The notes beneath the pieces are model-generated. The model was not told where the DNA came from. It saw only the letters and a list, made by a program, of their open reading frames with translations, and did not search any database. From Octopus vulgaris (taxonomy: Eukaryota), in the NCBI GenBank assembly GCA_951406725.2, contig OX597820.1, positions 64,480,001 through 64,544,000 on the forward strand: a stretch of DNA of 64,000 nucleotides. Direction: 5' to 3'. A program made the translations under genes and the position numbers. Below are positions 6,676 through 54,810 of this stretch, piece by piece. The first letter of the stretch is position 1. Each line of letters opens with the position of its first letter.

Positions 6676-6824
6676 CTCTTTCATTTCAATGTCGACAACA
6701 TCAACAGGGTAAGTTTTCCTTTATATATATATGTTCAAATTTTAAGTTTTGGTTTTTCGGATGAATCGTCATTCATATATTTGGATGTCTAGACCTGCTC
6801 ATATATCTCTATCTTTTATATTTT

Positions 6825-7368
6825 ATATATTACTGCTTTCAGCCTCGGGCAGAGGTGATGCTAGTGCACCAAATGTAGTTAAACGGTGTTGTTTATGATA
6901 TTGTTTTTGGTGAAATCGTGAGGTGGACGGAGCTTCTCTTCTTTGTCTCTCCTGCCATGATGTGGGTTCATCTGCTATCTTAGGTAGAAACATGTCTAGA
7001 CGTTCCTTGAAAACCTCCACATCAACTCCATGTAGATTATTAAGGTTGCCTAGAAGGATGTTAAACAATTGCGGGCCCTTGAAACTCAGACTATTGCAGT
7101 ACTGTGTCTTTATTTTAGATGGGGAAAAGGGGGACTTTGGTATGATGCAGTGCCGTCCAGTTCGAGGGTTGGTATAGATATCAATTCCAAAATTGGGAGC
7201 TAAAACTTCCAACATCATCCAAATATATATCACCGCATATCTCTCTCTTCTCTCCTGCGAATAGAGACTCAGCTCTTTTAGCCTCTCCCAGTAGCCCATC
7301 TTTTGCATCGAGCCAACTTTCTTTATGTATTGGCGCTGGATTGCTTCGATTCCCACCGTTTCTTTCAC
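6825..7368 (-). mobile_element. CR1-like LINE 3' fragment, ORF2 C-terminus still open (181 aa)
   Basis: IEAIQRQYIKKV..MGYWERLKELSLYSQERRERYAVIYIW..GPQLFNIL..FKERLDMFL, typical CR1-group C-terminus; 3' tail resembles 403-440. Confidence 0.85.
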
Positions 7369-12935: not shown

Positions 12936-13081
12936 AAATATAAATATATATATATATAACGGGAAGCTTTATGAAAATAAACAAAAGACGAAGGCAGGTG
13001 GATTACAATATATATATTTATATATATAAATAAATAAATGAAAGAATGGAGTCGGACGACGATTTAAGAAAATTCCTTTAC

Positions 13082-13162
13082 TCTCGACATATGTTTCGAA
13101 GACTGCATATTCCTAATTCCGAAGGAATAAGGGGTGCATTATGCCGCCTTCTCATCAGGAAA
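13082..13162 (-). ncRNA. Type I hammerhead ribozyme
   Basis: Reverse-complement twin of 13293-13373 with intact CTGATGA, GAAGGC/GTCTTC stem II and GAAACATATGTC. Confidence 0.8.
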
Positions 13163-13292
13163 GTCAAGGAACTTATGTCGGCATCATGACGAACAAAAAC
13201 TTTTAGATGACTGCCCACACGCACTATGGACTCTGTGTGGACAATAATCTAAAAGTTTTTGTTCGTCATGGTGCTGACATAAGTTCCTTGAC

Positions 13293-13373
13293 TTTCCTGA
13301 TGAGAAGGCGGCATAATGCACCCCTTATTCCTTCAGAATTAGGAATATGCAGTCTTCGAAACATATGTCGAGA
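13293..13373 (+). ncRNA. Type I hammerhead ribozyme, predicted cleavage after C13369
   Basis: TTTC-CTGATGA-GAAGGC..GTCTTC-GAAA-CATATG-TC-GAGA; palindromic stem III ACATATGT. Confidence 0.85.
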
Positions 13374-13582
13374 ATAAAGGAATTTTGTTAAATCGTCGTC
13401 CGACACCATTCTTTCATTCATTTATAGTAAAAAAACACACAAATTTCCTCACGAAAGCACGTGATCTCTGCCCTTGCCAGGTAGCTTCAACCGTGTTTTC
13501 TGGTGTGAATTTGCTACCCAGGTATCGGTTAACCGAATTATCCATACTAGGATAATTCATTCAACTACCTCCTTCCTCCTCT

Positions 13583-14040: not shown

Positions 14041-14223
14041 TCAATGCAGTTAATCTTACAACCTCTCTTGTATCTACCCCTTTTGATGTTTGGGAATTCT
14101 CTGATGTTTTTTCGGCTGACGAGTACGGGCCATCTGTATTCACTGCATTTTTTGTAGCTTATTAAAGATGTCCTCGTACGAAACGATCGTACCGAAATTT
14201 TAATCCATTCTTGTTGCTTTTTT

Positions 14224-19049: not shown

Positions 19050-19123
<74 letters not shown>

Positions 19124-19315
19124 TATGAAAGAATGGAGCTGAACGACGAATTAACAAAATTCCTTTATTTTCGACATAAGTTTCGAAGGCTGCATATTCC
19201 TAATTGCGAAGGAATAAGGAGTACATTATGCCGCTTTCTCATCAGGAAAAGCAAGGAAATTATGTCAACATCAAAATGCACAAAAAACTTTTAGATGATT
19301 GCTCACACGGAGCCC

Positions 19316-19316
<1 letters not shown>
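19124..19316 (-). mobile_element. pLTR copy of the 13-kb family with HHR at 19169-19249
   Basis: Alignable to 13035-13220; lies between (TA)n and (TA)/(TG)n. Confidence 0.85.
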
Positions 19317-19360
<44 letters not shown>

Positions 19361-37655: not shown

Positions 37656-37705
37656 TCTACAAAATACACACACACACATATATATATGTATACATACATA
37701 CATAT

Positions 37706-37740
<35 letters not shown>

Positions 37741-38228
37741 ATCAATTTAGGGTAGCAAAAAATTCAATAGAAATTTATCGCTACCAGCGGTCTAGTGGGA
37801 AGGAGAAAATAGTCAAAGACTATATATATAAATTCAACAACAATTAAGGAATGGCCTTAATAGGCCATTCGGCCCACCAGAAGAAGCAGCCAGGACTCAA
37901 ACCGCTAAGTAGTAGTAATTCAGAAATCAAATGAAAATTTTAAAACATTTACCCTAATTCATCTTTAGACGATGCATCGTTTCGGTGTTTTTAATGGCAA
38001 ACCAGCTTAATTAAATTAAATTAAGTCAATCTACCAAAGGCTACACCTCATCAGTAAAGAAACCAGGAGGGACGGATATACACGAGGCATATGTACCAAT
38101 GCCCTCGGAATATCTGCCTAAAATTTTCAAATTGATTTCTGAATTACTACTACTTAGCGGTTTGAGTCCTGGCTGCTTCTTCTGGTGGGCCGAATGGCCT
38201 ATTAAGGCCATTCCTTAATTGTTGTTGA

Positions 38229-38240
<12 letters not shown>
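37741..38240 (-). mobile_element. Penelope-like pLTR element with inverted 5' arm, embedded in (TA)n
   Basis: Arms 37821-37942 and 38119-38240 are near-perfect inverted copies flanking an intact HHR. Confidence 0.85.
37962..38060 (-). ncRNA. Type I hammerhead ribozyme, fully intact
   Basis: TCTTTA-CTGATGA-GGTG...CACC-GAAA-CGATGCATCG-TC-TAAAGA. Confidence 0.9.
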
Positions 38241-38292
<52 letters not shown>

Positions 38293-40269: not shown

Positions 40270-40273
<4 letters not shown>

Positions 40274-40725
40274 TTAATAAACAGGGTTCAGCAAAGATTT
40301 GCTTTACCACATACCGAAGTTTTGAAATAGCAGCCAAAAAACGTTAGCTATTTCTTCTACTTTAAAAAGGGGTCCTATGCTGAAGAGGAAAACGGTTGGT
40401 AAAGTATTTTTCTATATTCTTTATTCCAACCTAATTCCGAAATGCGCGTCCATAGGTGACCAGATATTGATTGATTTTCGTTACTTTTCCTCTCTGCCTG
40501 TGTGGATTGTTTTCAAGTATTTTGGTTTTGCTGGGACTCCCTTTTTAAAGTAGAAGAAATAGCTAACGTTTTTTGGCTGCTATTTCTAAACTTCGGTATG
40601 TGGTAAAGCAAATCTTTGCTGAACCCTATTTATTAAGTATGAAATGGTCCTTTTTCCATGCCGAATTCTACTTGGTGAAATTATTGATTACTTCTTAATT
40701 AATTAATTTTACCCTTTGTTATTAT
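40270..40725 (+). mobile_element. Penelope-like pLTR element with inverted 5' arm, embedded in (TA)n
   Basis: Arms 40270-40372 and 40539-40640 inverted; HHR between them. Confidence 0.85.
40374..40456 (+). ncRNA. Type I hammerhead ribozyme, predicted cleavage after C40450
   Basis: CCTATG-CTGAAGA-GGAA...TTCC-GAAA-TGCGCG-TC-CATAGG. Confidence 0.85.
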
Positions 40726-42503: not shown

Positions 42504-43976
<1,473 letters not shown>

Positions 43977-54438: not shown

Positions 54439-54440
<2 letters not shown>

Positions 54441-54810
54441 TAATTGAATGAATTATCTTATTAAGGATAATTCGAAAGCTAACCGATACCTGGGTAGCAA
54501 ATTCACATCAGAAAGAACACGGTTGAAGCTACGTCCCTAGGCCATAGACTACGTGTCTTCGTGCGGAAAATTGTATGTTTATTTTAAAATTATAAGTATA
54601 TGAAAGGATGGAGTTGAACGACTAGTTAACAAATATCCTTTATTCTCGACATATGTTTCGCAGGCTGCGTATTCCTAATTCCGAAGGAATAAGGAGTACA
54701 TTATGCAGATTTCTCATCAGGAAAATCAAGGAACTTATGTAGACATCAAAATGCACAAAAAAACTTTTAGCTGACCGCTCTCAAGGAGCCCATGGCGATA
54801 ATGAGTGTCT
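54439..54810 (-). mobile_element. pLTR copy of the 13-kb family with HHR at 54644-54724, 3' end fused to (TA)n
   Basis: Alignable to 13235-13568 on the opposite strand. Confidence 0.85.

What the first reader, a model, noticed from the sequence alone, without database searches (positions are those of the whole stretch)
37741..38240. Best-preserved ribozyme: intact hammerhead looped out between near-perfect 120-bp inverted arms
It has a perfect 6-bp stem I (TCTTTA/TAAAGA), canonical core, GGTG/CACC with an extended stem II, 12-nt palindromic stem III (ACGATGCATCGT) and a GUC site. The arms differ by very few bases, implying a young insertion. The ribozyme lies in the loop, so it stays free to fold, and cleavage would open a long dsRNA stem.
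Basis: partly seen in the sequence, partly recalled or inferred. Interest (0 to 1): 0.75.

Follow-up and report, generated by a model that had tools for sequence, protein, structure and literature searches.

The report
Penelope-pasted hammerhead retrozyme, twin-primed copy
This is one partial copy of a small, protein-free jumping repeat that carries a hammerhead RNA motif predicted to cut itself; its mirror-image arms obey a strict two-start-point rule seen in 64 of 65 comparable copies, which likely records how Penelope-type enzymes paste such RNAs into DNA.

Summary
The hammerhead and the inverted arms are real: type I motif on the minus strand, C17 at 37968, arms 110/110 identical. But this is not a special hairpin gene or the end of a full-length Penelope element. 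It is a 0.8-unit copy of an ORF-less ~474-nt tandem repeat with one hammerhead per unit, a non-LTR retrozyme (known class), inserted in (AT)n. Across 138 insertions, 3' ends fall at two AT tracts ~84 nt apart (A, B). Two-armed insertions with both ends intact are 64 A+B, 1 A+A, 0 B+B; single arms are mostly B (42:14). In 21 of 58 neither arm contains the other, so fold-back alone cannot explain them. An intact 781-aa Penelope-like element in the genome shows the same two-end rule. Best reading: a Penelope RT/endonuclease primes both target strands on one RNA. The ribozyme lies in the loop by accident of truncation. Cleavage, circles and expression are untested. The class, the Penelope link and the one-sided 'tail' are published; I found no count of this exclusivity in print. 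The scan noted the same pattern before in other families of this genome.

The parts
37739..38131 (-). Long arm (type A end): 393 nt of the retrozyme unit, monomer positions m310-474 then m1-229, read through the cleavage site
38132..38241 (+). Short inverted arm (type B end): monomer positions m38-147, 110/110 identical to 37821-37930
37962..38060 (-). Type I hammerhead motif; stem I can extend to about 37952-38068; predicted cleavage 3' of C at 37968
37969..37980 (-). Palindromic stem III; hairpin -1.0 kcal/mol, intermolecular duplex -18.7; one pair is G-C in 67 and A-U in 32 of 102 copies, keeping the palindrome
37821..37830 (-). Site B: internal (TA)5 tract, 3' end of most single-armed insertions (m141-148)
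37739..37820 (-). 'Tail' between site B and site A, present on one arm only; site A (m225-240) is an ATT-rich stretch ending at about 37739
38119..38140 (.). Inversion junction at 38131/38132; exact microhomology 0, beside an 11-nt imperfect match between the two arms
37666..37738 (.). Left (AT)n-rich target microsatellite
38242..38290 (.). Right (AT)n target microsatellite

Best explanation
This is a truncated copy of an ORF-less 474-nt tandem repeat with one type I hammerhead per unit (a non-LTR retrozyme), likely pasted into an (AT)n tract by a Penelope-like reverse transcriptase/endonuclease that likely primed both cut DNA strands on the same RNA, one at each of two AT tracts 84 nt apart. 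Shown: unit structure, hammerhead anatomy, (AT)n flanks, two fixed 3' ends, one end of each type per two-armed insertion, read-through of the cleavage site, and the same two-end rule in an autonomous Penelope-like family. Inferred: both strands of (AT)n are nicked; the first strand usually primes at B and copies away from A, leaving A free for the second strand; priming at A first covers B and gives a single arm; the two cDNAs are joined head to head by short microhomology. The template is a circle or an uncut multimer. The family's ribozyme likely serves to cut multimers into monomers; this copy, with one ribozyme and 0.8 unit, is likely a dead end.
For: Closed 470-474-nt unit in tandem with no ORF; up to 6.9 units (L219). 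Of 138 insertions: 64 A+B, 1 A+A, 0 B+B, 14 two-armed with an end elsewhere, 2 complex, single arms 42 B, 14 A, 1 other; 64 of 65 vs 50% gives p 2e-18. In the 39 new loci found with an end-neutral motif: 10 A+B, 6 other two-armed, 22 single B, 1 single A, 0 B+B. 180 of 201 A/B ends are followed by (AT)n. In 21 of 58 simple A+B loci each arm holds sequence the other lacks. Junction microhomology >=2 nt in 23 of 39 non-insertion junctions vs 17% by chance, p 5e-9. 107 of 159 arms that pass m65 cross the cleavage site. Copies within a locus differ by 2.2% on average vs 8.3% to the median other locus; 8 of 80 loci share alleles found nowhere else. Compensatory pairs in stems II and III. Autonomous RT + GIY-YIG ORF of 781 aa has two ends ~30-39 nt apart; 3 of 3 resolved inverted loci are A'+B', single ends 22 B' and 4 A' by my count. 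In vitro, an anole Penelope-like protein cuts and extends both strands, prefers AT-rich DNA, starts at two internal sites that bound the tail, and is predicted to be a dimer (PMC11167929).
Against: No DNA homology ties the unit to the autonomous family, so the partner enzyme is not identified. One A+A exception (L207) and 14 two-armed loci with an end outside A/B. The nearest other locus is on average closer (1.2%) than the sister copy within a locus (2.2%; sister closer in 17, tie 25, farther in 38 of 80), so one RNA molecule is not proven. Junctions cluster at mirror-symmetric points (16 of 58 within 25 nt vs 6.4 expected), which fold-back also predicts. In the anole element initiation is at a site not homologous to the cut DNA, and ribozyme mutants still insert. 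Only 1 of 9 predicted Xenopus retrozymes cleaved in vitro. The sample is incomplete: only the first 100 matches were listed, and two searches enriched for tail-bearing copies.
Confidence: 0.65

Rival explanations
1. Fold-back (self-priming): one cDNA is made, its 3' end folds back and copies itself until the next AT tract anneals to the far side of the target.
For: Proposed for Penelope inverted repeats in PMC3846280. Symmetric junctions are enriched (16 of 58 near offset 0, p 5e-5) and four are exact palindromes (L027, L045, L053, L235). The window copy fits: its B arm lies wholly within the A arm, beside an 11-nt imperfect match.
Against: 21 of 58 A+B loci have sequence unique to each arm. 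Short B-primed cDNAs, the commonest single arms, would fold back to B+B, and none was seen.
Confidence: 0.15
2. Two separate RNA molecules, one per protein subunit, are copied from the two nicks; an asymmetric dimer forces one to start at A and the other at B.
For: Overlapping arms need no strand displacement. Sister arms are not closer than the nearest other locus. The A+A locus L207 fits two RNAs.
Against: Arms never come from distant subfamilies on average (1.8% arm-arm vs 8.3%); 5' ends of the two arms are coupled at offsets 0 and one full unit (16 and 6 of 58 vs 6.4 and 2.0); the anole protein showed no strand difference in start site.
Confidence: 0.12
3. One reading: the terminal repeat (pLTR) of a full-length autonomous Penelope-like element, with the hairpin and looped-out ribozyme as a functional unit.
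For: Inverted structure, tail and type I hammerhead are PLE hallmarks; Xenopus retrozymes are homologous to pLTRs, so descent from a pLTR is plausible.
Against: 36 loci read unit into unit; tblastn with the 781-aa protein hits 4 of 138 regions, all at least 380 nt from the element; arm lengths are uncorrelated; a different family shows the same layout at 40270-40725.
Confidence: 0.06

Closest known systems
Metazoan non-LTR retrozymes (PMC7229834; bioRxiv 10.64898/2026.07.22.740005)
   Same: ORF-less, low-GC tandem repeat with one canonical type I hammerhead per unit; dispersed monomers to multimers; coexists with PLEs, which both papers name as the likely mover.
   Different: Unit of 474 nt is above the 150-450 bp given in PMC7229834 but within the 51-972 bp of the preprint; long extended stem II and 12-nt palindromic stem III. 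The passages read do not analyse insertion ends, inversions or (AT)n targets. No pLTR homology found here, unlike 21 of 57 Xenopus families.
EN+ Penelope-like elements: tandem/inverted pLTRs with a one-sided 30-40-bp tail (PMC3846280, PMC8557442); Poseidon PAc in vitro (PMC11167929)
   Same: Head-to-head inverted arms, tail on one arm only, two initiation sites, microsatellite targets, 5' truncation with microhomology.
   Different: No RT or endonuclease; tail ~84 nt; both start sites are AT tracts that match the target, whereas PAc starts in an AC-rich stem-loop without homology.
LINE-1 twin priming (PMC2837659, abstract start only; details recalled)
   Same: Both target strands prime on one RNA and give an inverted, truncated insertion.
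   Different: Here both primers start at fixed internal sites and the arms overlap as long inverted repeats; in L1 (recalled) the first primer uses the poly(A) tail and the arms scarcely overlap.

Membership tests
Type I hammerhead ribozyme | Core CUGANGA...GAAA...UH with three stems, stem I open | tested here: met
   (0 strict hits in 150 shuffles); G10.1-C11.1 present
Type I hammerhead ribozyme | Compensatory base changes in stems among relatives | tested here: met
   stem III G-C 67 / A-U 32; stem II G-C 91 / A-U 7 of 102 copies (related copies, so few independent events); first stem II pair broken in 40 or more copies
Type I hammerhead ribozyme | Self-cleavage at the UH site | not testable with these tools
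   active fold predicted 2.1 kcal/mol above the minimum
Type I hammerhead ribozyme | Loop I-loop II tertiary contact | not tested
   bulge in stem I and internal loop in stem II are present; contact not examined
Non-LTR retrozyme | Tandem repeat of a few hundred bp with one type I hammerhead per unit | tested here: met
   for the family; the window copy itself is under one unit, so it fails the preprint's 'active' rule of two motifs
Non-LTR retrozyme | No protein coding; low GC | tested here: met
   no ORF >=90 aa overlaps 37739-38241; no adjoining PLE ORF in 138 regions; AT-rich unit
Non-LTR retrozyme | Expressed as self-cleaved, circular RNA | not testable with these tools
   no run on record as RNA; contigs only
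Autonomous Penelope-like element | RT plus GIY-YIG ORF between pLTRs | tested here: not met
PLE-mobilised non-autonomous element | Tandem/inverted arms with a tail at one end only | tested here: met
   64 of 65
PLE-mobilised non-autonomous element | Microsatellite insertion bias shared with an autonomous PLE of the same genome | tested here: met
   180 of 201 ends; autonomous family ends in (AT)n
PLE-mobilised non-autonomous element | Sequence homology to the pLTR of the partner | tested here: not met
   20 autonomous loci compared, chance-level matches only; other PLE families not searched

The most novel reading that the evidence does not exclude
Each two-armed insertion is written by one Penelope RT dimer running on one ribozyme-made RNA circle from two target-matching AT sites in fixed order; the trailing polymerase stops where it meets the leading one, which is why arm ends coincide at offsets of zero and one full unit. 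This would explain the long-puzzling Penelope tail and head-to-head inversions and be direct genomic evidence that Penelope enzymes copy retrozyme circles.
Probability: 0.35. Interest if true: 0.68.

Novelty: new member of a known kind. Interest (0 to 1): 0.42.

Why it matters
The locus itself is ordinary: one dead-end copy among hundreds. The family is useful because papers infer Penelope mobilisation of retrozymes only from co-occurrence and pLTR homology, and call the origin of the tail and inverted arms an open question. A 474-nt protein-free RNA with two mapped start sites, a known target and a candidate intact enzyme in the same genome makes twin priming and circle-versus-multimer directly testable in the existing in vitro system.

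Tried and rejected
Rfam scan of the whole window gave only microsatellite-driven miRNA matches below threshold among the 150 of 230 rows shown. Expression: no RNA holder listed; four runs guessed to be RNA hold family contigs, but they are contigs of uncertain kind and show neither strand, ends nor circles. Polymorphism: four DNA-like runs from three coded organisms hold family pieces, none bridges the 38131/38132 junction; a hole in contigs proves nothing, and the empty site was not tested. A first arm-identity test with free end gaps (part 3) was biased and was replaced; both failed to show sister arms closer than the nearest other locus. Stops near the cleavage site are only about twofold enriched (30 of 137 in m34-1 vs 12 of 107 in the next bin, p 0.04), against a generally falling hazard, and could be a structural pause, so I do not count them as proof of cleavage. 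Loss of the tail after insertion by slippage between (TA)5 and the flank was rejected: it would leave A+A in young copies and some B+B. My hammerhead descriptor found no canonical motif within the autonomous family's repeated ends. No tree was built, so 'Neptune-type' rests on the Cys linker only. Search by sequence in earlier findings returned nothing.

Full report
Observation. The motif is as described: a type I hammerhead on the minus strand, 38060 to 37962, with C17 at 37968. A strict descriptor finds 4 motifs in the window and none in 150 shuffled windows. Rfam scores it weakly (Hammerhead_3, E 5.5). The arms are 110 of 110 identical; the apparent mismatches in the 121-nt repeat are the junction. 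Stems I and II form alone and inside the long hairpin, but the minimum-energy fold pairs part of the core with stem III; the active fold is 2.1 kcal/mol higher, and the palindrome would pair far better between two molecules (-18.7) than as a hairpin (-1.0).

Context. The window is C7:64480001-64544000 of a 2.8-Gb genome in 227 contigs. Size and microsatellite load suggest an octopus; that is recalled, not tested. The 179-nt loop gave 871 candidates, of which 40 were scored and gave 44 matches at 92-100%. Neighbouring matches lie 470-474 nt apart, and loci L010 and L015 show a closed unit in head-to-tail tandem with no ORF. I use the natural L010 unit as ruler, m1 being the first base after C17. 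The window copy is m310 to m229 through the cleavage site on the minus strand (37739-38131), plus m38-147 on the plus strand (38132-38241), between two (AT)n tracts.

Family census. I fetched 233 loci from six searches (with fetches 28, 30, 33, 35, 36), which merged to 138 insertions (a few output lines were cut, counts come). Exact motifs matched 33, 146, 63 and 196 places; for the 146 and 196 only the first 100 were listed, so later chromosomes are under-sampled, and enrich for tails. Outer 3' ends pile up at m147 (105) and m227-238 (89). I call m141-148 site B, a (TA)5 tract, and m225-240 site A, an ATT-rich stretch. 180 of 201 such ends run into (AT)n. Of 79 two-armed insertions, 65 have both ends at A or B: 64 A+B, 1 A+A (L207), 0 B+B; 14 have an end elsewhere and were left out of that ratio; 2 more are complex. 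Of 57 single arms, 42 are B, 14 A, 1 other. The 39 new loci found by an end-neutral motif gave 10 A+B, 6 other two-armed, 22 single B, 1 single A. Independence is rejected at p 2e-18 or lower.

Arms and junctions (58 simple A+B loci). Arm lengths are uncorrelated. In 21, each arm has sequence that the other lacks, so both were copied from RNA. Junctions: 19 have insertions; 23 of the other 39 have microhomology of 2 nt or more, against 17% by chance. The two 5' ends coincide more than permutation predicts: 16 at offset 0 (6.4 expected), 6 at one full unit with B ahead (2.0 expected, p 0.009), 1 with A ahead. 107 of 159 arms cross the cleavage site, 16 twice; stops just short of it are about twofold enriched. 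Copies within a locus differ by 2.2% against 8.3% to the median other locus, but the nearest other locus is closer still (1.2%); 8 of 80 loci share otherwise unique alleles between their copies. This shows a common source, not one molecule.

Ribozyme across the family. Of 102 copies in 76 loci, 55 have the canonical core and 44 have C in place of U4. Stem III swaps G-C (67) for A-U (32) while staying palindromic; a stem II pair is G-C in 91, A-U in 7; the first stem II pair is broken in at least 40. Copies are related, so these are few events, but they point to selection on the source lineages.

Candidate enzyme. A GIY-YIG search gave 148 matches among 150 scored of 6136 candidates, many in 781-aa open frames. 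Four ORFs tested all carry RT and C-terminal GIY-YIG; L141 has the DKG motif and a CX4CxxC linker, which PMC8557442 ties to Neptune/Nematis. Among 40 loci examined, ends fall at two sites about 30-39 nt apart, followed by (AT)n; L133, L146 and L148 are inverted and each has one end of each type; by my count single ends are 22 short and 4 tailed after removing two duplicate loci, and L147 was not resolved. The unit has no DNA homology to 20 of these loci, and the protein hits 4 of 138 regions, none adjoining. It is a candidate partner only.

Mechanism. Shown: the points above. Inferred: both strands of (AT)n are nicked; the first 3' end pairs with site B and copying runs away from A; the second pairs with A on the same RNA; the cDNAs are joined head to head. 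Priming at A first buries B and gives a single arm. One A and one B per unit explains the lack of A+A and B+B. Read-through needs a circle or an uncut multimer; I cannot tell them apart, though coupling at one full unit leans to a circle. Fold-back may make part of the symmetric subset, and the window copy alone fits either route. This copy has one ribozyme and 0.8 unit; a cut in the loop would leave a nicked 110-bp duplex, and no transcript of the locus is shown.

What is known. PMC7229834 (passages) defines metazoan non-LTR retrozymes, shows circles in coral, mussel and axolotl, names PLEs as strong candidates and has no mention of octopus. bioRxiv 10.64898/2026.07.22.740005 (parts 1-3 of 5, introduction to discussion; supplements closed) argues PLE origin from co-occurrence and pLTR homology, includes no mollusc, and found cleavage in 1 of 9 elements. 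PMC3846280 (8 passages) and PMC8557442 (12 of 21 passages) describe the tail on one inverted pLTR; the first favours self-priming. PMC11167929 (parts 1-2 of 4, whole main text; supplements listed, not read, and its Fig. S2 may bear on tail counts) maps two RT start sites bounding the tail and shows both strands cut and extended. PMC4209133 (12 passages) covers palindromic helix III, dimers and a circle model. PMC2837659 was seen as a search listing only. Searches found no paper naming this family or counting end exclusivity; subscription journals, including the 2005-2006 Penelope reviews, are not in the library.

Verdict. The end rule is a quantitative sharpening of a published qualitative trait and makes a mechanism testable. 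I had written this reading, which showed that other follow-ups in this genome reached it for other families; those notes are not independent support. Interest 0.42.

Noticed in passing
window 40270-40725: A different hammerhead family with the same layout: 107-bp inverted arms (97%), motif on the plus strand at 40374-40456 in the loop, an ~85-nt tail on one arm only, (AT)n on both sides.
   Followed up: partly
window 13030-13425, 19095-19318, 54440-54793: A third family: two hammerheads head to head at 13080-13164 (-) and 13293-13373 (+), with relatives at 82-88% elsewhere in the window.
   Followed up: partly
window 14110-14197: A fourth type I hammerhead family with a GUA site, ending in (AT)n; a similar motif occurs in L149.
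   Followed up: no
L010, e.g. 1560-1660: 44 of 102 hammerhead copies of this family have CCGAUGA in place of CUGAUGA, so a U4C variant lineage amplified well.
   Followed up: partly
L219:1088-4347: Single-armed array of 6.9 units; two units compared differ at 0 of 453 sites.
   Followed up: partly
L207:1407-2366: The only A+A insertion among 65; it may come from two RNAs or from a multimer.
   Followed up: partly
L141:2945-5290 and other loci L141-L157: Young Penelope-like family with many intact 781-aa ORFs, preceded in several copies by an overlapping open stretch of 250-480 codons that contains ~138-bp repeats; no canonical hammerhead found in its repeated ends.
   Followed up: partly
window 43098-43298: About 200-nt inverted repeat; Rfam MIR2646 match far below its gathering score.
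   Followed up: no
window 6823-7368 (-): 181-codon frame that by recall resembles the C-terminal end of a LINE reverse transcriptase; not tested.
   Followed up: no
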